A stretch of DNA of 15,517 nucleotides from assembly GCA_019649035.1 (NCBI GenBank), contig BMAT01011902.1, positions 296,901 through 312,417 on the forward strand. Reading direction: 5' to 3'. The notes under the pieces are model-generated. The model was not told where the DNA came from. It made no database searches and saw only the letters and a list, made by a program, of their open reading frames with translations. Below, piece by piece: positions 19-15,263 of this stretch (within the stretch, counting starts at the first letter, position 1; every line of letters begins with the position of its first letter). The translations under genes were made by a program, and so were the position numbers. This stretch comes from Elysia marginata. Taxonomy: Eukaryota.

Positions 19-351
19 AAGAAAAAATGTGAGAATATTTTCCTGCACTCAACAAGTAATTTATTTATAATAAAGACTTAATTTAGTTTTGATGGAGAAG
101 GCGGGTACATTACTAGATAAAGCTTCTTCCTATATTAAAACTTTTGGTGAAATAATAGATCACTTGTCAGAAAAAAAACTGGTTGTCAGTCTGTTTACAT
201 TGTTGTTTCAAAAATAATTGAGGTAGATAAGAAGTTTGAGAGTACTTGAGTGTTTTTGTATAATTTCTCAGTATATTAAATTTTTAAGATATCTACCTCA
301 TTTATCAACCATAAAACCAGGCCTTAATCAATGTTTGTTTTTCACCAACAG

Positions 352-501
352 GAAGTTTCTCGCAGCCCTGGTGACAGGTGGATGATCCGAGGGCCCAAAG
401 AGTATGTTCCCCCTGTGGAGGTGGAGGTTGTGATGAAGAGACAAGCTATCCCCATGGATGAGAATGAGGGCATTTATGTGCGCGACATCAAGAGTGGAAA
501 G
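352..501 (+). CDS. MVP: Major vault protein internal exon ([50 protein letters not shown]), phase 0 to phase 0
   Basis: Polypyrimidine tract plus CAG acceptor at 349-351 and AAG|GTAATT donor at 502-503. The translation closely matches vertebrate MVP at ...[39 protein letters not shown]. Confidence 0.88.
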
Positions 502-822
502 GTAATTCTCTCTCAATGCTGTTCAGAAAAACCCCCAGGGAAAGCCAATTTTTAAAAAATTGATATTTTCTGTTATAGGGTAAAATTTGACTTAAAAATG
601 TTTTGCATAACACAACAATATAATTTATGAAGTAGTCTCCTTAAAATTACATAGAAGAATAGTTGGTTCGCCCTTTAAATCCCCTATGACAAAAAAATCT
701 TTATTTGTTTTGCATTTTGAGCGAATGATTCAGAAGTCAAAATAGCTTTTGAGAAAACATTTATGTGTCTATTTTTTCTTCTTTTTTTTTCTAGTATTTC
801 AAATCAATGAAAGTTTACATTT

Positions 823-910
823 CTTTTGACAAAATATTGATAAGCCTAGAAAAATGTCTTGTTCAAAACAGCAACTTCTTTTAAAAATTTCAACATCTAA
901 CTCATTCACC
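823..910 (+). repeat. Dispersed intronic repeat, copy A (MVP intron)
   Basis: Three collinear blocks are shared with 5597-5716: TTTTGACAAAATATTGA, the 27-mer GAAAAATGTCTTGTTCAAAACAGCAAC (27/27 identical) and CTCATTCACC. Confidence 0.6.
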
Positions 911-1159
911 CCAGATGCAAGACAGTTTATTTTGAATTTGCTTAATTTTTAAAGTCAGATGGGTCTCATAACTCTAATCTTTCAAATCTTGTGACATAAT
1001 ATAGGTTGCAAAGCAATATTTTTTTTATCTGAAAACATGTTCAGCTTCCAACCCATTTATACTAAATATACTAAATTCCACAACTAGACTCATCTTGTGG
1101 GCACAGAATAGTGATCAAGTTTTCGGCAAAATTTATTTATTAACTTTCATCGTCCACAG

Positions 1160-1392
1160 GTGCGTGCTATCCAGGGTGTTACATACATGCTGAACCAAGA
1201 TGAGGAACTCTGGGCCAAAGAACTTCCACCGGCAGTGGAGAATCTGCTGACCGTTGACCACATGGCTGAGAGGAGTGACCGCCAAGGTGTTAAAGATGCC
1301 AAGGGTACCAGAGACAAAACTCGTGTTGTCAACTTTCGAGTGCCTCACAATGCAGCTGTGCAGATCTATGACTACAAAGAGAAAAAAGCAAG
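1160..1392 (+). CDS. MVP: MVP exon ([24 protein letters not shown]...[18 protein letters not shown] + 2 nt), starts phase 0 and ends phase 2
   Basis: CACAG acceptor at 1158-1159 and CAAG|GTAAGA donor at 1393-1394. Matches MVP at [30 protein letters not shown]...[26 protein letters not shown]. Confidence 0.9.
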
Positions 1393-2274
1393 GTAAGAAT
1401 GGATCGTTCTACTGTTTTTTTGTTTACCATGTAAAGGAAGCTATTTGACACATAATCATCATACTTTTTGTTCAGTGCAAAATTCTCTTTGCCTTATTTT
1501 TGAGCATCCAGTAAAATCCTGACTATCAACACCACAAGACTGGACAAAAAATAAAAGATAAATGTGGATGAATGTCTTCTTAAACTTTAAGAAAAAAGAA
1601 AGAAAAGACTACCAAAAGAGGTTGGCTTATAGCAAGCAAGTCCCCTTAAGAGTGTTTTACTGATAACAGAATCCTCAATTCATTGTTTGATTACATATGA
1701 TAATGTTGATCTCACCACTAACTGATTGTTTAGCAATGTCTGTGATGAGTTTTTTATATCCCCTGTATTTTTTCTCTGTGTCACAGGCAGGTTCGTAGAC
1801 AATTAGGTGCATTGCAATTGAATAGCTGTATATGACACTTGTAGAATGGGAAACACAATAAGAAAGTTTAACTATGAAAAGGAAAAAAATACCTTTTCAT
1901 TGATTTGGGTCATTCAGTTGTATTATACCAAACAAAAAAATCCTTTATAAAGTTAATATGATTTTGTCAAATAAGAATCTTGGTTTTGTGATATATTTAG
2001 TGAGGGAGATGGCAGAAATTATATTTTTTGGAAAGAGTGAATTGGTATCATCATAGAGGTTTTTGAAGCTCTTGAACTAAAAATGATTTCTCGATTTAGG
2101 GATTTGAAAACATGTCGTCTATGTCATACCTCTCAAAATGCGTCTTTACTAACAAAATCGAAGTTGTTTTATTCTTAAATCACTGAAATTATGCACCATA
2201 CCTCTCACACCTTTCAAATAAAAAAACACCCCATTTTTAAAAATTTCTCACATATGTGGCTTTTTGTTTTTCAG

Positions 2275-2472
2275 AGTTATTTTTGGGCCAGAACTTGTGA
2301 TGCTCGGCCCAGATGAGCAGTTCACACAATTGAGCCTGTCAGGAGGAAAGCCTAAGAAGCCCAACATGATTAAGTCCCTTTGTCTGCTCTTGGGGCCTGA
2401 CTTCTGTACAGATATCATTGTTGTTGAGACGGCCGACCATGCTCGGCTATCTCTTCAGCTGTCATACAACTG
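2275..2472 (+). CDS. MVP: MVP exon ((R)[65 protein letters not shown] + TG of W)
   Basis: TTTTCAG acceptor at 2273-2274 completes the split Arg codon. Donor is TG|GTTAGG with GT at 2473-2474. Matches MVP at [29 protein letters not shown]...[32 protein letters not shown]. Confidence 0.9.
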
Positions 2473-2489
2473 GTTAGGGCCTTTCTCTG

Positions 2490-2517
2490 TTTTTTTTTTT
2501 TTCTTTTTTTTTTTTTT
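2490..2517. repeat. Poly-T tract of 28 nt with one C, located in the intron immediately after the exon donor
   Basis: TTTTTTTTTTTTTCTTTTTTTTTTTTTT. Confidence 0.9.
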
Positions 2518-2912
2518 GACGTAAAAAAGCTTTGGCTTGCTAGGTTTTGCTCTCTGATTATTAGACACAACTATAGAAATAAAAGATGACAAAACATCTT
2601 ACTGTGTAGTTTAATCTATGATAATTGCAAATTTATGGAGTGCCTATAATCTACAAAAGCAGTGTACTGAGCACTGTGCATGGTAAACGCTGAAGATAAA
2701 ACACATCCATTCACTAAAAATACACAATGGGCAATATTATCATTTACATAATGGTTTAAAAAGAGGCTGTAAGATTGTTTGCACACACAAAAAGTAAAAA
2801 AAAAAAACAACTCATTTTTCTCTATAAAAGGGAAATAAAAAGTAAGGTAGAGATCATTTTATGTATTGATGACCAGAACTTGAAAACTTGTATTGTAACA
2901 TTTTCTAAACAG

Positions 2913-3054
2913 GCATTTTGATTACGCAAAGCAAACAGCAGAGGAAGCAGCGAAACTGTTCAGTGTGCCTGATTTCACTGGTGATGCTTGCAAGGCGATT
3001 GCTTCTCGAGTGAGAGGGGCTGTTGCACAGGTCCAGTTTGACGATTTCCACAAG
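2913..3054 (+). CDS. MVP: MVP exon ((W)[47 protein letters not shown])
   Basis: AAACAG acceptor at 2911-2912 supplies the G completing Trp. AAG|GTGAGT donor at 3055-3056. Matches MVP at [48 protein letters not shown]. Confidence 0.9.
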
Positions 3055-4255
3055 GTGAGTCCACTTGGTTGTTGATCGTGCAGCAATTTCAAAATGTTAG
3101 AAACCTTTGCTCTTGATGGTTTATCTTTTCTCAAGCTTCATTTAAGGCTGAAAATAAAATAAAAACACATGTGTGGTGATTGAACGAAACCCGCTGGAAC
3201 TCGGTAAAGTTAGTTCTGTGCTAGTGGTTTAAAGTGAAAATATTGATGGTAAATCGATACTCAGCCAACACCAAAATTTATTTTCAGAACCTTTCTTGTT
3301 CTAGATTTAATCTAGATCTTGGTCCATTATTGGTAGATCATAAAATCAGATTTAGACCTAGATTCTACTCTAGATCTGTCAGCTGTTGGATGATCGGTAA
3401 GTGCTACGCAAGGCCGTATTTAGTCCATAGTGTGAAAGCAAGCTTCATCTCGACAAAATGTAGGCTGCATTAAGTCGGCTAGATCACTTTTGGTCAAAGG
3501 AAAAGCAGTTAAATAGTGCTATACACTAAAGGTGGAAACAAGATGATGGTATGAAAGCAGAATTTTAAGTGTAAAAGGAGCTTTTAATTTTTCTTTCATG
3601 CAAGAATTGTTGATAATGAAATCTCTGAACATAGCAATGATGTTCAAAATGTTTTAACGACTGAAAACAATGTTTTTATTGTTAAACACTTTGAAAAACA
3701 GTGGAAAAAGCCTTAACTCTAAACATGATTTTCTCAGTTTCTACTTTTTACGAGTGAATGTCTTTGAAAGGCCATAACTTTGGTTCTAATTAAGATATTT
3801 ACAAAATTTAAACAGCATTCTAATCAGAAAAGGTTGTTCTCCATAAAAAAAAGTAAAAACAAAATATCCCTCATTGGCGAGTTGTGGAGGGTTTCCCCAT
3901 ATACCCACACAGATTTAAACAAAAAGGATCCTTTTTGTTATCTCAACTCAATGATAATTTTAATATTTTTGCATATCCTTAAATACTTTAAAAAATGATT
4001 GGATGCGAATATGGTCTTAATTTTGTTGCAGATTTTAATAATAGATGCTTGTTCTTATTCTGAAATGATGCGGTTGCAAATGCCATAAATTGTCCTGTCC
4101 TGATTTTGTAGTTGTTAAAAACGACCTTAATTAGTAAAAGGTCCCACTCTTCCAAAATGGTACCATTTAATTGGGATCAACTTTGTTGACTTTTAGCAAT
4201 GTTTAAAAAAAATCAGGTTTGTCTGTGTTCAGCAAAGCAATTATTTTATATCGCA

Positions 4256-4271
4256 ATATATATATATATAA
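4256..4271. repeat. (AT)n microsatellite
   Basis: ATATATATATATATAA in the intron. Confidence 0.85.
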
Positions 4272-4375
4272 AAATGTGTATTGTGCTTTGCATTATAGTC
4301 ATTCTTTTAAATCAAAACACCAAATAAATCTCAACTTTCAGGAGTTAATGCTTTGTCACCATGCTTGCCTTTCAG

Positions 4376-4587
4376 AATTCTGCCAAAATCATCCGTGCTT
4401 CTGTGTTTGGCATGGACACCAATGGTAAAGTGAAGGAGCAGTTCAACTTTCCCCAGAACAATCTCGTCATAACGAGCATAGATATCCAGTCTGTGGAACC
4501 GGTAGACCAGAGGACGAGAGACGCCCTGCAGAAGTCGGTGCAGCTGGCTATTGAGATCACAACAAACTCTCAGGAGGCTGCCGCCAG
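4376..4587 (+). CDS. MVP: MVP exon ([70 protein letters not shown] + AG)
   Basis: CCTTTCAG acceptor at 4374-4375 and CAG|GTGCTG donor at 4588-4589. Near-identical to vertebrate MVP at NSARIIRTAVFGF...[48 protein letters not shown]. Confidence 0.92.
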
Positions 4588-4961
4588 GTGCTGCCTAAGA
4601 TTTCCAGCTTGAGTTCAAGGCTTCTTTGTGTTTCATTAGTTTTAAACCAATCGATTCATTTCACTGGATGTAGAAGATGTGAATGTCTAAAAAATGATAG
4701 ACCATAGTACTGCTCTCTTAAAAAAAGACCAATGTTTTGCCTTTCTCTGTTAATGTAACACTACTGATACTTTAAAAAGAACAGAATAAGGATGGCAATG
4801 TAAGAAGTCTTTGTTAGATTTAGCTGAAGAACTGAGTCAAAGAGAGCTCAGAAGTATTTAATGTGTTGTGAAAACAAACTCGATGAAGCTGACGAGAAGT
4901 TCATCAACTGCTTACTCGAAATGATAGAGTTTAACCCAAAATTTTCTTTCCTTACCATTAG

Positions 4962-5205
4962 GCACGAAGCCGAACGTCTGGAGCAGGAGGCCAAGGGCAG
5001 ACTTGAGAGGCAGAAAATCACAGACGAAGCAGAGGCAGAAAAGGCCAGGAAACAACTGCTGGAGCTGCAAGCCAACAGCGCTGCGGTGGAGAGCACAGGA
5101 CAGGCCAAGGCTGAGGCCCAGAGTAGAGCAGAGGCCTCCAAGATTGAGGGTGAGGCAGCAGTGGAGCAAGCCAAACTCAAGTCAATGGCATCCAAGATTG
5201 AGGCT
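4962..5205 (+). CDS. MVP: MVP coiled-coil (cap-helix) exon ((R)[81 protein letters not shown])
   Basis: CATTAG acceptor at 4960-4961 completes the split Arg. GCT|GTAAGT donor at 5206-5207. Matches MVP at [80 protein letters not shown]. Confidence 0.9.
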
Positions 5206-5596
5206 GTAAGTGGTTAGAGTTAAGGGTTGACTTACTTTCTCTTGTGTTGAAATCTTCTTGACATCAAATAGGTCATCTATCCCTGAAAAAAACTGTTACA
5301 TACAAAACCAATTAAACTAGGAAAAAAAAAGCCCTACAAAACTCACAATTAGCAACTTCTATCTTTTGTGTGCAGGGAAGTAATTAGAAATAACCAGTGA
5401 TTTGTATTTATGTCCCTTTAAATGTTGATGGAGCTTTACGTTTGTCACACATTCCTGGAATGACTGATAAATTTAATATTTTCTCGCATTCAGGGTTATT
5501 GAATCGGAAATTAGAAATCCCTCCCCCTCCCCCTTTTTTTTTAAAATTCTATTTAAAAGTCTATTTTTACTTCTTTTATATAAACAAAATTATTAT

Positions 5597-5716
5597 CTTT
5601 TCACAAAATATTGAAATAATTATGAATTTTTTTGACATTTGGTAGCTTGGAAAAATGTCTTGTTCAAAACAGCAACACCTTTGAGGATGCAAATAGCGAT
5701 TTCCGACTCATTCACC
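5597..5716 (+). repeat. Dispersed intronic repeat, copy B (a different MVP intron, same orientation)
   Basis: TTTTCACAAAATATTGA ... GGAAAAATGTCTTGTTCAAAACAGCAAC ... CTCATTCACC. The spacers between blocks differ in length and sequence from copy A. Confidence 0.6.
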
Positions 5717-6071
5717 TTAAAAACTAGAAATTAACTATTCATTTTTGTAAAGTTAAACATTTTTTTGTGATGACCAATCACAGATGGATATTTCGAGATG
5801 TTGAACCTGTGCAAGAGGTTGTGGGTTTTATCCCCAGTCCAGGCAAATTCTTATTCTCTGCAACCCAGCCTGAGACATTGGATAGCTGAGTCCTTGTAAA
5901 GTTTTATAGCAAACTGCCACACAACTCTATAATGAGGATCCTTCTTCTTGTTTCCTGACTGTGGTATTAAGTGTAGGACATAGTTGACTTTTTATCTTAA
6001 ATTTATTTGGACCATGCAAAGGACTAATTCTATATCTAAAACCTTTTTTTTAAAAATCCTAAATCTATCAG

Positions 6072-6260
6072 GAGTCTGAGCTAGACCGCCTGACCCAGGC
6101 TCGGGAAGCCGAACTGAAATATTCGTCAGAGCAGAACAGGATGGAGCTGGGCAAGGCCCAGGAGCTATCAGCCATCGAGATCAAGAAGTTCAAAGAGATG
6201 GTCGAATCGATTGGAGCCAACACACTCCTCGCCATGGCAACGGCTGGTCCAGACATGCAG
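6072..6260 (+). CDS. MVP: MVP exon (ESELDRLTQAREAELKYSSEQNRMELGKAQELSAIEIKKFKEMVESIGANTLLAMATAGPDMQ)
   Basis: CTATCAG acceptor at 6070-6071 and CAG|GTAAAT donor at 6261-6262. Matches MVP at ...[26 protein letters not shown]. Confidence 0.88.
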
Positions 6261-6399
6261 GTAAATAAGATGTAGCCTAAGCAACATATTGTCACGTCTG
6301 GCTTGCTAAACCATAAAAAACATCGTTCATTGTTTTAGTCTAGAGATGTTGTCAATTGATAAACTTTGAAATGGGGAAACAATCTATTAGTAATAACAT

Positions 6400-6600
6400 T
6401 GATACTAAAAGTAATTGTAGTCATAATAGTTGTAATAATAATGCTTATAATAAATTTTAAAGTAACGTCAATAATTATGGTCTGAATAATGAAAATGTTA
6501 AAAAATATTGTTATAAATAATAATGATGGTAATAGTGATGTTCATGATGATTATAATAAGAATAATGATTATAATGCTTTTGATGTTGTCATAAAGAAGG
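6400..6600. repeat. AAT/GAT-rich low-complexity block with triplet periodicity (last MVP intron)
   Basis: Reiterated AATAAT, GATGAT and TAATAA units, for example AATAATAATGATGGTAATAGTGATGTTCATGATGATTATAATAAGAATAATGATTATAATGC. Confidence 0.7.
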
Positions 6601-6713
6601 CAATAAGATGATTTTTTTCCTGTAAGTAGTTTTTCTTTTTCTTATAAATTTGCATTCAATTCACAAGAACTTAAACATGTGAACTAATCAACCTTCATCC
6701 CTCCTTCTCATAG

Positions 6714-6869
6714 GTGCGCATGCTGCAGGCCCTGGGCTTGAAGTCGACGCTCATTACCGATGGTTCATCTCCCATCAACCTGTTCAACACAGCATCTGGT
6801 CTCATTGGAGGCCTGGTGCCAGCAAAACCTGGCAGAGCACAGACCGCGGATGATGATGATGATGTGTAG
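6714..6869 (+). CDS. MVP: MVP terminal coding exon ([51 protein letters not shown], then TAG stop)
   Basis: TCTCATAG acceptor at 6712-6713. Matches MVP at [32 protein letters not shown]. In-frame TAG at 6867-6869. The poly-Asp tail is encoded by (GAT)5. Confidence 0.88.
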
Positions 6870-7060: not shown

Positions 7061-9494
7061 TTGTTTAAACTCCATTGGAAAAGTATAAAGGAGGGAGCCG
7101 GATAAAAAGCATTGCAAATTTTCATGAAAAGATCTTTCAGCAAAGACTTTGTTGGTCCTTTAAAATGCAATTAATTTTAAATTGCGAGCATTCAGTGTTG
7201 CCCATCGCCCCATATAATCCAGTTCTGTTTAAAGTTAATCAGGGAATTTATTTAGTAAGGTCTGCCTTTGGCTCAGGCTTAAATGAAATGACACTTAGAT
7301 CTGTAGTCTACACTATAGTAGATCTTTGTCTGATGAAGATACAGAGAGCTCCTAATGGAAACATCTTTTAATGATGAATTTATTGTTGTATACCACTCAT
7401 TAAATTTCCAAAACAAAATATGTAAAGCGATATTTTTTACATATATTGTCGTCATTTTTAGATTTTATGTAAGCTGTGAAATCACATTGTTGTAATCTAT
7501 TCTTGTTTCATTCTTTAAAACTTTATTTGCTGTGACAATTTGATATAACTTATTTAGACTTATATATGTAGAATGTACAGTACAACCGCCTGAACCGCCT
7601 GTTGTATAATTATCATTTAGTTTCTACAGTTTGTGTGTGACTCATATCAAGTGAAGGACCTCATGCCATTCTTATGAAATAAGCGCATCAATGGTGTCAT
7701 GTTACTTTTTTACACTATTGAAGTAAATCATGTTTGTTGTAAAATTGATCACTAGACTTTCTCTTCTATTTTGACTCATTTTTTCGTAATGACCCACACA
7801 AACCATATTCCATGGAGTATTTACTGTATAAAGTGTTGCCTTGGTTAGTGTTATAAGTCGTTGCTCAATTTTTTATACAATCTTTTATTTTCGAAATGGG
7901 AACAGTTTCTTAAATTTTCATTGGTTTTGATTATAATAAGATTTTTGGCTTTAAAGAAATACCAAAATATAAGCTAAAATCTTCGAGTTTAAGGGGGCAA
8001 AAAGAAGACTTTAAAAATTAGCCTTAAAAAAAAATCCAAACAAACAAGCTATATTTTGTGTATTGCAAGCTTGGCTTCCCGGAGTTTGAGGTTGTTGGAC
8101 TTTTGTTTTGCTTGTTACTGTCTACAGAAGACATTACCTGTACAGGGACTTTTTATTTTTGAACAAATTTAGTTTCCCTTTTTTTTCCCTTACACATGCA
8201 ATATCAATTGATAGATAATTCACGTGACTCGACTCAACTGTGATGAAAGTTTGTGGTTTTTTGTTTGCTTTTTCACAATCTCATATTTCTTAAAATTTTC
8301 TTTTGTTTTTGAATAAGTGTAAATTAAGTTTTTTTTTCTGAGTTTTCAACATTGAATTCTACAACAAATAAATCATTCTTTTGTTACAAACTTGTGATAT
8401 TCAAACTAATAAATTTAAAATCCAGTTTACACACATCTTTGTTCTATGTATGCTTTTTTTTCAACTTACATTTTGGTAGTACCAGTTTGTGTCAAGACCC
8501 ATTGCAGTTGAAAGCCAAGGTACAGGTTTAATTTTTGAAATCATTTGTCCATTAAGAGTAATTATATCACTAGAAGAGACATTAGGCAGGAGACAGCAAA
8601 GCTAATGATTTTCAATATAGGTCTTGCTTTTAAAAGTTATTTAATTCTGCAATGTTGCACATTAGGTTATAAAAATCTTATGCTAGAAGGATAAGAGAAG
8701 TCTTCTGCAAAATATTTTTCTTTTTAAAACAACAATGATACCTGAAGACTTGCATTGAAATATTTTTTTTCTTTGGTTTATGGCAGGTTTGAGAAAAAAA
8801 ATAGCCCAGCTGTGGCTCCCAACTTAGCTAAAAAAAAGGTGTTGAATAGTGTCAGCAAAAGAATATCAGTTTAATATAAAATTTCACTGGTGATAAACTC
8901 CAGAAAAGTTGTAAGATGTAATTTCTGTTTTCAAGGATCCCATTGAAAAGCAGACCTGTCCTTTTTATTCTGTAAGGAGCACTGCATTGTTTCTAAATTT
9001 GTCATCAGAGAAAAAGAAACATCAATGATTTTTTTATTTCATTTCTAATAATTTTGCCATCATTTCGGGCATTCTTCTTAAAGCATGCTTCTACCCACCT
9101 CTAATTTCATACTGTACCTAAAATCTTGTAATCAGCTCTTATCAGGAGTTGTTTACTTCGGTCTGAATTGTTATAATACTCGGCAGCTCTGCACTTAGCC
9201 CTGCCGATGTTTACCATAAGTCTAGCGTACGGTACTAAAATCACTTAGATGACATCAAACACCTAAAGCTAGTTTACCCTCAAAATATTCGAATCCATAT
9301 TTATGAACCCAAGCACCACCTAATTACATAGTGGACGAGAGAGACAGACACTTGAAAGCTGAAAGTAATCTTATTTTGTATCCTCGGGAAAAGGTTTAAT
9401 TTTTACGGATACCAGACTGTCCGGGCCCCTACTGGTTGGGTCCGTGTCAGTATAATGTGACCGGCTGAGGCCAAGTCATGGTATCACCGCTAGT

Positions 9495-9645
9495 AGAGGC
9501 CTTTAGCACACGCACCGTGTTTCATTACGCGTACGTGAAAATCGGGAAAGCAGATTGAGAAACTATAAAAATAATGAAACCAGTTTCTAAAAATAGACCC
9601 ACAGACGTTCGCGTCATACTCACGCGTTGCTGCTTAAAGTCTGTA
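9495..9645 (+). mobile_element. Solo arm (half-copy) of the same foldback element family
   Basis: This 151-bp stretch is about 94% identical to the left arm of the 14959-15263 palindrome (AGAGGCCTTTAGCACACGCACCGTGT...GCTGCTTAAAGTCTGTA). It begins at the same terminus and stops exactly at the position matching the palindrome centre. No inverted partner arm lies nearby. Confidence 0.75.
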
Positions 9646-11820
9646 TTCTCTGGGTGGCAGCCCGTACATTGTCATTGGGATCTAAGCGCTGAGAGCACCT
9701 TTGAAGTGGAATTGGGCTTGTAAAATATCCTTCAATCAATCAATTACGGATATCAGGGTTGTAAAGATTTTAGTGTTGCGTCTAGGATATCAATAAGATA
9801 AAGGATATGTTGAAAAGGGTAAGTGTAAATCGACAGCTTCATGACTATAATAGTTTGCAGACTGTTATGAAAAGAAGGAAGAAGCCTCCCCAGGTCTTGG
9901 GATACACGAATCTTTCAAAGTAAGCAGCAGCCTTAAAGCTACACTAGGCTCTTATTTTAGTACGGCAGTGTAAACAACATTGGATGAAGAAATTTAAATA
10001 TGTGGATGCGGGGGTGGAATAAACGGTCAACATTCGGGCCAGCTCTTCAAAATTCTTAGAAATGCCTCCAGAATGATAGACCTACCAATTTTTGACAAAG
10101 GTGCAATTAAAATCGAGTTAGAACCTGGAAAAGGAGAGTACAAAGTAAAGCAGATGCTGGGGCAGGACTTGATATTTTGGTTGCTTCACATGAAGAGAGG
10201 CAACCAATAGAAAACTGTGCATAGACGTATGACAAACGGTCATGGTTGGATGTCAAATAAAAAATATGGGAGGCAACTGAACTAAAAACAAATTTTGAAG
10301 TATCGCAGCTTAAACTCGTGTTTTTATTCTCTTTGAGAGTGATTTTTCGCGTTTCTTACTTCGTTTTTGCTTTTGCAACTTAACATTTCATATTCCTGAG
10401 ATTCACCCTTTGAGATTGAAGGTAGATACTTACAGAGAAATAAACAGCAAGACAACTTTAAATCATCTCAACCATCTCTGAGGTCTTCTTGATCTTGACG
10501 CATTTCCGTCTCCTTTGCAAAACTGGCCATGAATAGTGCAAAACCACCAGCAATGGCGGGCCGAACAGTGATGAGAGAATGATTTTATCTTGACAGAAAT
10601 TATAGTCTATATTCTAAAAAAAACAACAACTAAAAGCAATAACAAAATGCAATGAATTTGTTGAAAAATTCCTTCAACCCTAGGATGTTAACCATGTTAA
10701 AAGGAAAAAGACGCCGTATCTATACATGGAGACAGTGAGTAACGAGCTATGCGCGCATTAAACATGACCACAGATTGCGATGTAGACCAGTAAAAAAATA
10801 CAGTAAAATCATGTAGAATGTGATATAAACTTATAAAGTTGTCTTCCTATTTTTATTTCTCTCTTGAAAAAGAGATTATTGATTTTATTGTGGGTTTCTT
10901 TCATTAAATGCCCAATGCATTAGTCTATTCAGCGTTATTTTAGAAAAAAGGAATTTTATCTTTGAGAAAATGTTATCTCATCCAGCAAAAACACGAAATA
11001 AAAAGTTGCACATGTTTTTAAGGACTTGAAAAGCAACATTATGAAGTAAGGCTTGCCAGGTATCTATTAAGTTTTTCATTGGTTGCTTCGCTATGCAATT
11101 TCAAAGTATCAGTAAACTTTTATTCTTTTGATGCCACATTTGGAGATTTAAAATAATTTTGCCCAGAAGGCTCTCCACACATCTTTTGGCGTTAGTGTGA
11201 AAAGACATTATTTCAACTCTTAGGCCTAATCTTCCCGGACGTTTCTTAGCTTGTTCAAACAGAGGGATCACAGGGCACGTTGACAGCTTACTAAAGTAGA
11301 GATTTTGGCTGTTCGTGACCAAATCAAAGGCAAGTGTAGAGGCGACTTAAGGATATGTCTTTACCAACGGTGATAAAAGAACAGAAAAGTAAGGGTGCAT
11401 GCAGAGTGTGAACAAGTAATCTTGCTTCAGTTGACACTGTCTACCGTTTTTAGAGGTGAAACAGTTCAAGAAAATATCCAAAAGATTATGGATTAGCCAA
11501 TATTTTTTAACTAAATAGTCATTAGCATGTCTTCATCTTTCCTTAGACTCTATTGGGTAACTTTAAGTATCATATTATTTTCAACCCAAACAAGCATAAT
11601 ATGAATCATTTAATCGTGACTTCTTCATTTGTTAAAGAAACTATATGAACCAATCCAAAATTACTATAAAGACCGCCCACTAAACTTAATAAGTCTAAAC
11701 GCCACATCTTCATCAAGGAACTATTTATGTTTTATTCTTTTGCTTTTCATGCGCTGTCTCAATACCACCCCGTGGCTTTTACTATATCTTTTACTCACTG
11801 TCTCTCTCACACAGTCACGC

Positions 11821-11838
11821 CCCTCCCCCCCCCACACC
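11821..11838. repeat. Poly-C / C-rich homopolymer tract
   Basis: CCCTCCCCCCCCCACACC. Confidence 0.8.
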
Positions 11839-12727
11839 TCTCTTATGCCCTAAATGCATATTACAACTCCTACACCTCTATTGTTTCGTACCATGCTTAA
11901 TGGAAACGTATTAACTTGTAGGGAAGGAGTATATTCTTTCATGATGGCACAAACAGGCCTGGAGCCTACTAAAACCGATTTGATTCCAAAGTTAGTCACA
12001 CCACTTCAATCTGTCTCTCCGAAATTCAATGAACAAAAATATTAACTAGGCCTACTGCTTTGTAAAAAGTTAACATCTAATTAAAAATAATTTTACTTTA
12101 TTACAGTACACTTTAAATAGCCCATACATTTTCTGCTTGCTCGCTACAACCTACTTTATATCAACATTGCGAGTACCATTACGCTTGATGAAGTAATTTA
12201 ACTTTTTTAAGAAATGTATTGCTTCGTTTAATACCAAAGACATTAGACATGAAATTTAGAAAGTAGGAGATAGAGATAGAAATTATTTAGACGCTGTAGT
12301 GAAAAACATGCTATATGTACTAAATTGATTGCCGATTCACCAGTTTTATTTACTGTGTTATTTTTTGAATAAAGGTATTTTCCGAATAAAAAAAAATGTT
12401 GCAAATGTTGTGCCAAACTGGCAAACTCGTATTAGTTGCAAAATTTATAAGTTTTGGTGCAGACGTATAACATCAGTTTCATAGAACCTAAAAAAAACAA
12501 AAACAACAAAAAAAAAACTGTTTATGGTAACACAGAGATCTAGTAGAAATAAAAGGCAGGGTTGAATGAACCAGCCAGCTTAGAAAAGGCAAAAATGTAT
12601 AAAAGAAGCTATAAACCTTTGCTTTAGGCTAAAGCCGTGTGTAATTTTCCCACAACAGTAACTGTTTAGAAGCAACAGATGTTTATTTAAAGACTTCAAA
12701 AATGTTGTGTTTATAACGTATTCACCG

Positions 12728-12730
<3 letters not shown>

Positions 12731-12775
<45 letters not shown>
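12731..12775. repeat. (CT)n / (GA)n microsatellite with about 19 pure units
   Basis: CTCTCT... run. It explains the spurious minus-strand ORF encoding RERERERE at 12580-12786. Confidence 0.95.
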
Positions 12776-13417
12776 AACAAACCCATTTAAACATAGTGGT
12801 TCAAAAAATTAAGCTACTGATAAGTTTTGAAGTAATTGATTATACCATCAACGCAACCATCCAGTTCTATGGCATCTTACATAACTACAACTAGTCTACG
12901 TTTTAATGATTTACATGTTTTAAAGTCTTAAGATGTTGCAATCTTGTAGCATAAAACATCTCACTATTGATAAGAAAATGACACGATCCCTTTGAGGGGC
13001 TCAGTTCCCCAGCTCATCAGATTTCTCTGTATGGTTTAATCAAAGACGGTGCAGTTAGATAAGATCAGGCACTCTCTAGTAGGCACAACTAAAACACGCG
13101 TACACAACCATACCCTCTCAGGCGACATCCTGCAAAGAAAAATAGTCTTTTTATTTTAGGCTTACTGCAGTTGGAAAAAAACCCAACAACATTGTAGTAA
13201 ATTTATTGATACGCAGACGTAGAAATTTATTTCTGTTATTGTGACCATTGTTTACATGTGCACACGCCGGTACAGCCATAGCGACAAATTATTTTCAAAT
13301 AGTGTCCTATCTGTACACTTATTATATCTGTGGTTTACAGTCCTGACTGATGCTTCCCGCAGATCCTCATATGGAGGGCTCTTTAAAACTGGCTCAAGCA
13401 CCGCGGCATCTGACTGG

Positions 13418-13425
13418 TGACGTCA
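13418..13425. promoter_or_regulatory. Perfect palindromic CRE (TGACGTCA) inside a CpG-retaining patch; candidate promoter element
   Basis: GGTGACGTCACACGG lies in a locally CpG-containing region (13250-13460) of an otherwise AT-rich, CpG-poor window. A CTATATT motif and a CA|GTAAGC donor-like site follow at about 13482-13500. Confidence 0.2.
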
Positions 13426-14225
13426 CACGGTGTATCTGGGTCAGACAAACACTCCAGGGATGTGCTGCTCAAACCATCTTCCTATATTGTCCTTCCTCAG
13501 TAAGCTAACATAATACTGTAAGTTTTAACCTAACCATGAATAATCAGCATTTTTTCTTATGTTGTATCCCGTGTTATGAAATACGTAGAAAAGTAGGGTA
13601 CCGTTGCAAAAAAATCAGGCGGAAGTAAAACCTAAGGTACTGGAGCTTTAAGGTCTCTCATTAAAACGATTGATGCGTCTTTGTGAAGCTGTCGGGATTC
13701 AGACTTCCCTGCGAAACTACTGCCGACCCAGGAGCGATAAAATAGGGCCTTAACAATGACGAGAAAGTATGGTTCTTCCCGGGTAGACCTCATAAAGGCC
13801 TTATTAAAAAGTTTAAAAAAGATACCAGGACCAAATGATAGGATTTGTTTTAAATGCCCGCTCTCGGTTTTTAATCTTTGTTAAAAAAAGCAAATAATGG
13901 TCATGTCGAGAAGTTTTACTAAAACACACAAAATTCAATGTGCCGGCCAGCCTAAAACAGTTTTATCTGCGGAGATGTATTTATGATATCAACCAATAGA
14001 TCAGAAAAAAATATAAATCAAACAGCATTTTGAGATGATAGGTTAAACGAAATAAAAGTTTAACAGAAAATAGTCGCGATTCGAAAATCTTTCCACGGTG
14101 GGGTAATCAGCCTGATTCACAGCGGCTCAGGTAGAAATATTTTTCAAGAATACTGTATGGCGATGACGATAAATCTATTTAAAGATCGAGTGTGCCTGAT
14201 AGTGGTTAAATTTAGCCAACTCTTT

Positions 14226-14249
14226 CTTGGATTGCATCTTGGATTGCAT
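14226..14249. repeat. Perfect tandem duplication of a 12-mer (CTTGGATTGCAT x2)
   Basis: Direct adjacent repeat read in the sequence. Confidence 0.85.
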
Positions 14250-14958
14250 CATAATTATTCAAACATAGTTCGGGAAAACTTTTATTTGCGCCTCTGTGCC
14301 TACCAAGCCCTTGATGGGTAGCTGGATCTCTTGAGACTCGACGAAAGTGAAGGCGGCGAGGAAAGCAATGGCAAACTACCTCGTTATGCTGTATGCCTGA
14401 AAAATAAGAACACTGCTCCTTGTTCCATTACGCTCGTCTCGAGTACGGGAAATTTTACTCTACTTTACAATAAAATGTCTTTGAATCCGTTTTTTTCCCT
14501 TTCACCTTGATGAAATCTACTGATCACCTATCTTTCAAGTCTGATAACCTCAAGGCGTAATCAAGATATCAAATTAATATTTCCACCACATTAAAAAATT
14601 TGAAACAGATTTTCAAATATATAGGGTCTATAAAATTATGTATCTCTAGATTTCAAGTTTCCGAAGCTATTTAATTTATGAGATATCTACAGAAAAACCG
14701 AGACCGCCACAAGTATTTGAGTTTAAACGTGAGCACTCTAAACACAGTTTGCTTTCGATTTCAAAAGTTTGACAAAATGTCGATAAACTGTAATCCTCTT
14801 TGACAAGAAACAAAAGGTAGGCTACAAACAACATGACGGCAAACTTTCATCGAGGAATTGAAATTGAAAGGAGGTGCTAGATTTTTATGTAAAGAAGTTT
14901 CAAGAAGAGCTCAGGATAGAAGCGAGTGAAAGCCGTTTGTCGTCGAAACCTAGACCAT

Positions 14959-15263
14959 AGAGACCTTTAGCACACGCACCGTGTCTCACTACGCGTACGT
15001 GAAAATCGGGAAAGCAGATTGAGAAACTATAAAAATAATGAAATCAGTTTCTAAAAATAGACCCACAGACGTTCGCGTCATACTCACGTGCTGCTGCTTA
15101 AACTCTGTCATACAGACTTTAAGCAGCCAACGCGTGAGCATGACGGGAACGTCTGTGGGTCTATTTTTAGAAACTGGTTTAATTATTTTTATAGTTTCCT
15201 TGATCTGTTTTCCCGATTTTCACGTACGCATAGTGAGACGCGGTGCGTGTGCTTAAGGTCTCT
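14959..15263. mobile_element. Foldback / hairpin element, a near-perfect 305-bp palindrome made of two ~152-bp inverted arms with essentially no loop
   Basis: The left arm is AGAGACCTTTAGCACACGCACCGTGTCTCACTACGCGTACGTGAAAATCGGG...GCTGCTTAAA. The right arm is its reverse complement at about 90% identity and ends ...CGCGGTGCGTGTGCTTAAGGTCTCT. The symmetry centre lies at 15110/15111. Termini are AGAGACC / GGTCTCT. CAT abuts both ends and may be a 3-bp target-site duplication. Confidence 0.75.

What the first reader, a model, noticed from the sequence alone, without database searches (positions are those of the whole stretch)
9495..9645. Solo half-copy of the foldback arm ending exactly at the palindrome centre
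A 151-bp copy of one arm, about 94% identical to the left arm at 14959, sits 5.3 kb upstream. It begins at the same AGAG(G/A)CC terminus and stops precisely at the position matching the symmetry centre (...GCTTAAAGTCTGTA). The flanking sequences are unrelated between the two loci. Either the mobile unit is the ~151-bp monomer and the downstream copy is a head-to-head dimer, or the solo copy is a hairpin-mediated deletion product of a full palindrome. The first case would be a foldback formed by template switching or hairpin synthesis. Both mechanisms are informative about how this family propagates.
Basis: seen in the sequence. Interest (0 to 1): 0.5.

Follow-up and report, generated by a model that had tools for sequence, protein, structure and literature searches.

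The report
Half foldback element inside a retroposon
The lone half-copy of the palindromic repeat is real and does stop at the palindrome's tip, but it lies inside a small insertion that looks retrotransposon-made, so it is probably an ordinary by-product of a LINE element joining foldback elements at their centre.

Summary
Observation confirmed. 9495-9646 is a complete single arm of the 305-bp foldback element at 14959-15263. It is 95% identical to the left arm and 91% to the right arm. It starts at the same AGAG terminus and ends inside the 3-nt hairpin loop. Its flanks are unrelated to those of the foldback.

The solo arm lies inside a 328-bp unit (9416-9743). That unit is bracketed by a 13-bp direct repeat, TTACGGATAYCAG, and ends in (TCAA)3, the only tetranucleotide repeat in the window. 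These are the marks of LINE-mediated retroposition.

Two Elysia marginata proteins (GFR95935.1, GFR62157.1) begin in the same arm and read to the same apex position (within 2 nt). They then continue into LINE ORF2 at two different points. The apex is therefore a recurrent junction with variably 5'-truncated LINE sequence.

Best reading (confidence about 0.45): a LINE joins foldback copies at their centre, and a read-through transcript of flank + left arm + LINE 3' end was retroposed here. The closest precedent is Tx1-Mar/SINEU targeting Mariner-N4_AMi in crocodilians.

No genome-wide census was possible. The LINE origin of 9647-9743 is inferred, not shown. Interest is moderate to low.

The parts
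9403..9415 (+). Upstream copy of the 13-bp direct repeat TTACGGATACCAG. Candidate target-site duplication of the 328-bp unit.
   Evidence: family D3, 12/13 identical, spacing 341. Taken alone it is compatible with chance: about 6 such pairs are expected per window, and about 5% would bracket the solo arm.
9416..9494 (+). 79-bp 5' segment of the unit. It is unrelated to the foldback element and has 57% G+C against a 36% background. Its origin is unknown: it could be the flank of a source copy, a SINE-like head or LINE sequence.
   Evidence: No similarity to the foldback flanks. G+C. No tRNA or Rfam family. No Pfam domain.
9495..9646 (+). Solo arm: a complete single arm of the foldback family, from the outer terminus AGAGGCC to the hairpin apex ...GTCTGTAT.
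   Evidence: It has no hairpin of its own (z = -1.4). Its translation is 24/25 identical to the N-terminus of E. marginata GFR62157.1.
9647..9731 (+). 85-bp 3' segment that follows the apex junction. Inferred to be the extreme 3' end of a 5'-truncated LINE. This is not shown.
   Evidence: The inference rests on the tail and direct repeat and on the arm-to-LINE ORF2 fusions in E. marginata. No protein domain and no unusual RNA fold.
9732..9743 (+). (TCAA)3 simple-repeat 3' tail of the unit. It abuts the downstream direct-repeat copy.
   Evidence: this is the only perfect repeat of three or more copies with a unit of 4-6 nt in the whole 15.5-kb window, and it ends exactly where the second direct-repeat copy begins.
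9744..9756 (+). Downstream copy of the 13-bp direct repeat, TTACGGATATCAG.
   Evidence: (D3).
14959..15108 (+). Left arm of the full foldback element.
   Evidence: It carries 4-5 private changes relative to the three-way consensus.
15109..15111 (.). The 3-nt loop (CAT) at the symmetry centre of the foldback element.
15112..15263 (-). Right arm of the full foldback element (reverse complement of the arm consensus). It is the most diverged of the three copies, with about 10 substitutions and 2 one-base insertions that are private to it.

Best explanation
14959-15263 is a non-coding, all-inverted-repeat (foldback, or '2-TIR') DNA element of a family that also occurs in the sea slug Elysia marginata. 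9495-9646 is one complete arm of that family. It is not a free-standing half element produced at this locus.

The arm is the middle part of a 328-bp insertion, 9416-9743, that was most probably installed by LINE-type target-primed reverse transcription. The insertion has a 13-bp target-site duplication and a (TCAA)3 3' tail.

Proposed history:
1. A LINE family joins foldback copies at the hairpin apex. This could be endonuclease target preference, or capture of LINE cDNA at breaks at the palindrome tip. The products have the form left arm - variably 5'-truncated LINE - (right arm).
2. At one such copy the LINE remnant was only about 97 nt long. A transcript that started upstream, ran through the left arm and ended at the LINE's own 3' end was recognised by the LINE machinery through that 3' end.
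3. That transcript was reverse-transcribed into the present site and 5'-truncated 79 nt upstream of the arm.

On this reading the arm ends 'exactly at the centre' because the centre is where the LINE is joined.

Shown: the arm homology and its boundaries; the direct repeat and the tail; and the arm-apex-to-LINE ORF2 fusions in two E. marginata proteins. Inferred: that 9647-9743 is LINE-derived, that the direct repeat is a target-site duplication, that the LINE targets the apex, and the read-through (5'-transduction) step.
For: (a) The arm boundaries are exact and the flanks are unrelated.

(b) The unit has retroposon marks. TTACGGATAYCAG occurs at 9403 and 9744. (TCAA)3 at 9732-9743 is the only tetranucleotide-or-longer tandem repeat in the window, and it ends exactly at the second direct-repeat copy.

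(c) An exhaustive protein search with the ORF that crosses the foldback centre found two proteins: P0125 = GFR95935.1, 'endonuclease-reverse transcriptase', and P0126 = GFR62157.1, both from Elysia marginata. Their first 25-26 residues translate the inner 75-78 nt of the arm (24/25 identical to the window copies). That match runs up to ...GTCATA or ...GTATT, which is the loop +0 to +2 nt. P0125 then continues into the start of a reverse-transcriptase domain (weak RVT_1 hit, E 9e-4, below Pfam's cut-off). P0126 continues into a sequence I recognise, from my own knowledge, as a LINE ORF2 C-terminal tail. So there are three independent junctions at the same arm position, with different partners, all in LINE sense orientation.

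(d) The left arm is closer to the solo copy than to its own right arm. The three copies therefore behave as independent family members.

(e) There is precedent. Tx1-Mar LINEs and SINEU insert preferentially into the non-autonomous transposon Mariner-N4_AMi. One SINEU-2B subfamily carries a 5' extension derived from that transposon because its master copy sat inside it (PMC4494074).

(f) LINEs are abundant in E. marginata: 539 Ingi sequences are reported in PMC11203168.
Against: - No DNA of any other copy could be obtained, so the LINE origin of 9647-9743 is untested. That segment shows no similarity to the C-terminus of P0126.
- The 13-bp direct repeat alone is compatible with chance.
- The 79-bp 5' segment is 57% G+C. 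That is unusual for a random intergenic flank and fits better with a TE or SINE-head origin.
- The two E. marginata proteins are gene models, so an intron at the junction cannot be strictly excluded.
- The search could only detect junctions at or beyond the centre that are fused in frame to a long ORF. This favours LINE partners.
- The expected right arm downstream of a LINE tail was not observed anywhere.
Confidence: 0.45

Rival explanations
1. The monomer is the unit. A roughly 152-bp arm with a defined inner end is itself mobile or repeatedly copied, and the 305-bp palindrome is a head-to-head dimer that arose once and then spread. The solo copies happen to lie in, or insert into, LINE-derived sequence. 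In the window, 9416-9494 plus 9647-9743 would then be a single 176-bp LINE or SINE 3' fragment, with its own target-site duplication and tail, interrupted by the arm.
For: Three independent solo junctions end at the same arm position. The solo copy is the closest of the three to the consensus (about 3 private changes, against 4-5 and about 12). Both segments flanking the arm are G+C-rich (57% and 48%, against 36%), as if they belonged together.
Against: The 152-bp unit has no terminal inverted repeats, no target-site duplication (AGT | TCT) and no Helitron-like or other termini. No known eukaryotic mechanism moves such a unit. It has no structure of its own.
Confidence: 0.15
2. SINE-like family. 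9416-9743 is a (5'-truncated) copy of a composite SINE. Its body is a captured foldback arm, and its tail is the 3' end of the partner LINE. The apex junction was created once in a master copy.
For: Direct repeat plus (TCAA)3 tail. A G+C-rich 5' segment. Mollusc SINEs are modular, with heads, bodies and LINE-derived tails that are exchanged between families (PMC4758252).
Against: No tRNA, 5S, 7SL or snRNA head was detected. A single master junction does not explain why the E. marginata copies join the same apex to two other LINE positions.
Confidence: 0.12
3. Hairpin or centre-break deletion at this locus. A full palindrome once sat at 9495. Cruciform or hairpin cleavage at the tip, followed by end joining, removed the right arm and some flanking DNA.
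For: The copy ends within the 3-nt loop. A 150-bp-arm palindrome with a 3-nt spacer is the type known to break at its centre. That last point rests on my own knowledge of centre-break palindrome revision in mouse and yeast; PMC7467729 documents related hairpin-mediated rearrangements.
Against: It does not explain the direct repeat plus tail that brackets the unit. It does not explain the same endpoint at two E. marginata loci fused to LINE ORF2. It requires zero loss on one side and more than 150 bp lost on the other. No microhomology or remnant target-site duplication is present. The TCTCT after the junction matches the last 5 nt of the element, but the following bases do not repeat the left flank.
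Confidence: 0.12
4. Solo TIR of a larger DNA transposon. The arm is the terminal inverted repeat of a longer element, the palindrome is a 2-TIR deletion derivative, and 9647 onward is internal sequence of the longer element.
For: Solo-TIR and 2-TIR copies are common in long-TIR families. For Galileo in Drosophila mojavensis, 64 of 170 copies are solo-TIR and 49 are 2-TIR (PMC3573991).
Against: There is no transposase or other domain in six frames of 8701-11100. There is no second arm nearby. The sequences beyond the apex differ among all three solo junctions, and two of them are LINE ORF2.
Confidence: 0.07
5. Assembly artefact: a chimeric join at the centre of a palindrome.
For: Palindromes are hard to sequence and assemble, and the assembly method for this window is unknown.
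Against: The arms differ by 5-11%, so they would not collapse onto each other. The junction lies inside a coherent unit bracketed by a direct repeat. The same junction position is seen in an independent genome.
Confidence: 0.03

Closest known systems
Tx1-Mar LINEs and SINEU retroposons that target the non-autonomous transposon Mariner-N4_AMi in crocodilians (Kojima 2015, PMC4494074). Also Tx1L in Tx1D of Xenopus, which I cite from my own knowledge.
   Same: A LINE lineage is joined again and again at one position of a multicopy non-autonomous DNA transposon, with variable 5' truncation. Retroposed copies can carry part of the target transposon as a 5' extension because the master copy sat inside it.
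   Different: Here the junction is the apex of a perfect palindrome, so structure rather than sequence might be what is recognised. The LINE clade is unknown. Only three junctions have been seen. The 3' junction and the target-site duplication at the target were not observed.
Solo-TIR and 2-TIR copies of long-TIR foldback-like transposons (Galileo, P superfamily; PMC3573991)
   Same: One family shows both an element made almost entirely of two long inverted repeats and copies that consist of a single repeat with no partner nearby.
   Different: Galileo solo TIRs are attributed to deletion or recombination and have no fixed inner end. Here the inner end is reproducible and is joined to LINE-type sequence.
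U6/L1-type chimeric retrocopies made by reverse-transcriptase template switching (own knowledge)
   Same: A fixed 3' end of one sequence is fused to a variably 5'-truncated LINE, and the whole is flanked by a target-site duplication.
   Different: No RNA with a natural 3' end at the foldback apex is known, and no small-RNA family matches.
Centre-break revision and hairpin-capped breaks at long palindromes (own knowledge; related work in PMC7467729)
   Same: The breakpoint is at the tip of a long perfect hairpin.
   Different: Those events yield deletions or rearrangements at the same locus. Here the half element lies in a unit with retroposition marks, and the same endpoint recurs in another genome.

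Membership tests
Foldback / MITE-like (2-TIR) non-autonomous DNA transposon (applied to 14959-15263) | Terminal inverted repeats that make up nearly the whole element | tested here: met
   The arms are 150 and 152 nt, 88-89% complementary, with a 3-nt loop. The DNA fold is -148.5 kcal/mol, z = -26.
Foldback / MITE-like (2-TIR) non-autonomous DNA transposon | Target-site duplication of a fixed length | tested here: inconclusive
   The element is flanked as CAT|AGAGACC...GGTCTCT|CAT, a 3-bp match with a 1/64 chance probability, and this is the only full copy. No superfamily can be assigned.
Foldback / MITE-like (2-TIR) non-autonomous DNA transposon | Several copies at unrelated loci, no coding capacity, and an autonomous partner that encodes a transposase | tested here: inconclusive
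   Arms occur at two loci in the window and at two in E. marginata. The ORFs inside the element have no homologues. No partner was found, and a census was not possible.
Solo-TIR copy (sensu Galileo, PMC3573991) | A single TIR with no inverted partner in the surrounding few kb | tested here: met
   The only other arms in the window are those of the complete element 5.3 kb away.
LINE-mobilised retroposed insertion (LINE 3' fragment, SINE, or transduced copy), applied to 9416-9743 | Flanking target-site duplication of about 7-20 bp | tested here: met
   A 13-bp repeat, 12/13 identical, directly flanks the unit. Alone it is compatible with chance.
LINE-mobilised retroposed insertion | A 3' end that is poly(A) or a short tandem repeat and abuts the downstream target-site duplication | tested here: met
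   (TCAA)3 at 9732-9743 is the only such repeat in the window and ends at the second direct-repeat copy.
LINE-mobilised retroposed insertion | A 3' region homologous to the 3' end of a partner LINE | not testable with these tools
   No LINE consensus or Elysia DNA was available. There is no similarity to the coding C-terminus of P0126.
SINE | A head derived from a Pol III gene (tRNA, 5S, 7SL or snRNA) with an internal promoter | tested here: not met
   ARAGORN and Rfam, at both the gathering threshold and E <= 10, find nothing in 9100-10400. A 5'-truncated head cannot be excluded.
Target-specific LINE (Tx1-Mar-like) | Independent insertions, with variable 5' truncation, at one position of a repeated target | tested here: inconclusive
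   Three junctions lie within 2 nt of the apex. Two are joined to different ORF2 positions and one to a 97-bp tailed segment. The sample is small and detection was biased.
Target-specific LINE (Tx1-Mar-like) | The target sequence resumes after the LINE 3' tail, with a constant 3' junction; membership of the Tx1 or R1 clade | not testable with these tools
   No DNA downstream of the E. marginata LINE fragments could be obtained. The clade was not determined, since the only hit is a weak RVT_1 match.
Palindrome centre-break deletion product | A full palindrome at the orthologous or ancestral site | not testable with these tools
   The related loci that could be fetched (L003-L008) share only MVP exons, at 71-85% identity.

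The most novel reading that the evidence does not exclude
A LINE lineage in sacoglossan sea slugs integrates specifically at the apex of a palindromic foldback transposon. It would recognise the extruded hairpin or cruciform tip, or exploit breaks there, rather than a linear sequence motif. In doing so it splits foldback elements and generates new arm-carrying retroposons.
Probability: 0.2. Interest if true: 0.65.

Novelty: new member of a known kind. Interest (0 to 1): 0.38.

Why it matters
If the reading holds, the 'half element' is not evidence about how the foldback family itself propagates, whether by monomer dimerisation or hairpin deletion. It is evidence of an interaction between two transposon classes: a LINE that is repeatedly joined to the centre of a palindromic DNA element, and retroposons that then spread single arms. 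That would add a mollusc example to the few known cases of LINEs that target DNA transposons. It would also raise the testable question of whether a DNA hairpin tip can serve as a retrotransposition target. In practice, it warns that solo arms of foldback families should be checked for retroposition marks before they are used to infer DNA-level mechanisms.

Tried and rejected
1. Census of the family. Exact-pattern scans with two invariant 19-20-mers found nothing in the metagenome or viral collections. The bacterial/archaeal genome collection gave two Dyadobacter hits that are bare 19-mers with no extension. Degenerate scans with the foldback ORF also found nothing.

2. Word-indexed protein searches with two ORFs that lie in the foldback (one runs into the right flank): no homologue. 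Only the exhaustive search gave hits.

3. Orthologous loci. MVP-bearing contigs from related organisms (L003-L008) align only in exons, at 71-85%. The window's own ORFs, and P0125 and P0126, are not in the contig index.

4. Segmental duplication: rejected, because the flanks are no more alike than shuffled sequence.

5. One large element spanning 9495-15263, with the solo arm and the right arm as its TIRs: rejected. There is no matching target-site duplication, and the left arm at 14959 makes a complete element on its own.

6. Internal-deletion model that keeps the last 5 nt of the right arm (TCTCT at 9647-9651): the following bases do not repeat the left flank, so it is not supported.

7. Transposase or other protein remnant next to the solo arm: none in six frames of 8701-11100.

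8. tRNA, snRNA or other RNA identity for the 5' segment or the arm: none.

9. A structured LINE-like 3' stem-loop in 9647-9744: the fold is no better than shuffles.

10. The similarity of 10305-10332 to the junction sequence does not extend, so it was left unexplained.

Full report
**Context**

The window is eukaryotic. Exons of a major vault protein gene lie on the + strand from about 331 to 6828. The G+C content is 36% and CpG observed/expected is 0.58. The repeat family under study also occurs in the sacoglossan sea slug Elysia marginata. The window therefore most probably comes from that group; this is an inference.

**Observation**

- 14959-15263 is a 305-bp palindrome. Its arms are 150 and 152 nt, 88-89% complementary, around a 3-nt loop, CAT, at 15109-15111. 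As single-stranded DNA it folds at -148.5 kcal/mol, z = -26.
- 9495-9646 matches the left arm at 95% (145/153 in the global alignment; BLAST E 6e-65) and the reverse complement of the right arm at 90-91%.
- It begins at the same AGAG(G/A)CC terminus as both arms.
- It follows the right-arm reading through ...GTCTGTAT, the middle base of the loop, and then diverges.
- The 200-bp flanks of the two loci are no more alike than shuffled sequence, in any orientation.

An end within 1 nt of the centre would be expected about 1% of the time if truncation points were random, so the boundary needs a cause.

**Relationship of the three arms**

Against a three-way majority consensus, the solo copy has about 3 private substitutions. 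The left arm has 4 plus one indel. The right arm has about 10 plus two one-base insertions. The left arm is thus closer to the solo copy than to its own partner. The three behave as independently diverging family members, and the palindrome is not a recent in-situ inverted duplication. Several differences are CpG/TpG transitions. Even so, the arms remain CpG-rich (observed/expected 1.4-1.6).

**Search for other copies**

- Exact and degenerate scans of the metagenome, viral and prokaryotic genome collections found no copy. Two Dyadobacter hits are bare 19-mers.
- Word-indexed protein searches with ORFs from the palindrome found nothing.
- MVP-bearing contigs of related organisms align with the window only in exons.

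**The turning point**

An exhaustive HMMER search with the 72-aa ORF that crosses the palindrome centre returned two proteins: GFR95935.1, named 'endonuclease-reverse transcriptase', and GFR62157.1, both from Elysia marginata.

- Their first 25-26 residues (MKPVSKNRPTDVRVILTCCCL[N/K]SV[I/F]) translate the inner 75-78 nt of the arm. They are 24/25 identical to the window's left arm and solo copy respectively.
- The match runs through ...GTCATA or ...GTATT, which is the loop plus 0-2 nt, and then stops.
- GFR95935.1 continues into the start of a reverse-transcriptase domain (..EVEKALARLNNNRACGEDGIPGEF...NLRPITLL..). Its RVT_1 hit is weak (E 9e-4) and below Pfam's cut-off.
- GFR62157.1 continues into a sequence (..GRLFGHILRRDNDIP...RGRPSTTLP...AQDRGNW..) that I recognise from my own knowledge as the C-terminal tail of LINE ORF2.
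- The residues just before each junction follow the arm variant of that copy (VI in one, VF in the other). A splice donor at the internal GT of the arm is therefore unlikely, although an intron exactly at the junction cannot be strictly excluded.

The apex is thus a reproducible boundary at three independent loci. At two of them it is joined to LINE coding sequence, in sense orientation, at two different LINE positions.

One caveat on detection: the search could only see junctions at or beyond the centre that were fused in frame to a long ORF. Even so, two random junctions among about 48 detectable residue positions would both fall at the centre with a probability below 1%.

**Re-reading the solo locus**

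- The arm is followed by 97 bp that end in (TCAA)3 at 9732-9743.
- Immediately after that comes TTACGGATATCAG (9744-9756), a 12/13 copy of TTACGGATACCAG at 9403-9415, which lies 79 bp upstream of the arm.
- On its own, a repeat of that quality is expected about six times per window, and about 5% of such pairs would bracket the arm.
- However, (TCAA)3 is the only perfect tandem repeat of three or more copies with a unit of 4-6 nt in all 15.5 kb, and it ends exactly where the second repeat copy starts.

A target-site duplication together with a simple-repeat 3' tail is the mark of LINE-mediated retroposition. The unit 9416-9743 (328 bp) is therefore best read as one retroposed insertion made of a 79-bp 5' segment, a complete arm and a tail-bearing 3' segment.

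**Mechanism proposed (confidence about 0.45)**

1. A LINE is joined to foldback copies at the hairpin apex, with variable 5' truncation. This could be target preference, or capture at breaks at the palindrome tip.
2. At a copy whose LINE remnant was only about 97 nt, a transcript started upstream and ended at the LINE's own 3' end. It was retroposed in trans, or in cis, to 9416 and carried the left arm as a 5' passenger.

This explains the exact end at the centre, the missing right arm, the unrelated flanks, the direct repeat and the tail. It uses only known steps.

Kojima (PMC4494074) showed that Tx1-Mar LINEs and SINEU retroposons insert preferentially into the non-autonomous transposon Mariner-N4_AMi. 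He also showed that one SINEU-2B subfamily carries a 5' extension derived from that transposon, because its master copy lay inside it.

**What remains unproven**

- The LINE origin of 9647-9743 is untested. No LINE consensus or Elysia DNA was reachable, and the segment shows no similarity to the coding end of GFR62157.1.
- The 79-bp 5' segment is 57% G+C, which is odd for a random flank. It could be a 5'-truncated SINE head, though no tRNA or other RNA family matches. It could also be LINE sequence, in which case the arm might have entered a LINE 3' fragment rather than the reverse.

**Rivals**

- *Monomer model (0.15).* It gains from the reproducible inner end and from both flanking segments being G+C-rich. 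It lacks any transposon hallmark for a 152-bp unit: no TIR, no target-site duplication, no Helitron-like ends and no structure of its own.
- *Composite SINE with the arm as body (0.12).* It fits the direct repeat and tail and the modular SINEs of molluscs (PMC4758252). It does not fit the two other LINE junctions.
- *Centre-break or hairpin deletion at this locus (0.12).* It fits the breakpoint. It does not fit the bracketing direct repeat and tail, or the recurrence in E. marginata.
- *Solo TIR of a larger DNA transposon (0.07).* It has precedent: 64 of 170 Galileo copies are solo-TIR (PMC3573991). No transposase remnant is present, and the sequences beyond the apex differ at all three loci.
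- *Misassembly (0.03).* It is unlikely given the 5-11% divergence between arms and the independent genome.

**Verdict**

The half copy is most probably a passenger in a LINE-made insertion, not a product of how the foldback family itself replicates. That is a new example of a known kind of interaction, a LINE joined to a specific site of a DNA transposon followed by transduction of target sequence.

The one reading that would be surprising is that the LINE recognises the hairpin tip as such. It is not excluded, but it rests on three junctions. Interest is moderate to low until a genome-wide census is done.

Noticed in passing
window 331-6828 (+): Exons of a major vault protein gene, at about 331-555, 1160-1396, 2264-2473, 2940-3060, 4361-4600, 4950-5217 and 6721-6828. 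The best database matches are 89-91% identical and none is exact, so the source species' own MVP was not among the proteins the search returned.
   Followed up: partly
window 10305-10332: GCAGCTTAAACTCGTGTTTTTATTCTCT resembles the solo junction GCTGCTTAAAGTCTGTAT|TCTCT, that is, the arm end plus the first 5 nt beyond it. About 21 bases match, with 2 mismatches and 5 indel bases. The similarity does not extend on either side. It is either chance or a relic of a second junction.
   Followed up: partly
window 9416-9494: The 79-bp segment upstream of the solo arm is 57% G+C, against 36% for the window. Bases 9422-9436 form an imperfect inverted repeat with 9487-9501, and that repeat overlaps the first 7 nt of the arm. 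The origin of the segment is unknown.
   Followed up: partly
window 3918-3939: A perfect 22-bp palindrome inside an MVP intron (self-BLAST).
   Followed up: no
window 843-881 and 5644-5682: A 39-bp direct repeat, 90% identical, in two different MVP introns. It may be a fragment of another interspersed repeat.
   Followed up: no
window about 12729-12775; also 2489-2517 and 12490-12518: A (CT)n microsatellite, and long T-rich and A-rich tracts that are complementary to each other. This is ordinary low-complexity sequence.
   Followed up: no
window 14959-15263 and 9495-9646: The arms keep a high CpG content (observed/expected 1.4-1.6) in a window that is CpG-depleted overall (0.58), even though several differences between copies are CpG-to-TpG changes.
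   Followed up: no
window 9800-9925 (+): Sequences that look like exons with splice sites (ATGTTGAAAAGG|gtaagt, and cag|ACTGTT...TTTCAAA|gtaagc) lie just downstream of the 328-bp unit. The unit may therefore sit near the 5' end of an unannotated gene. No Pfam domain was found.
   Followed up: partly
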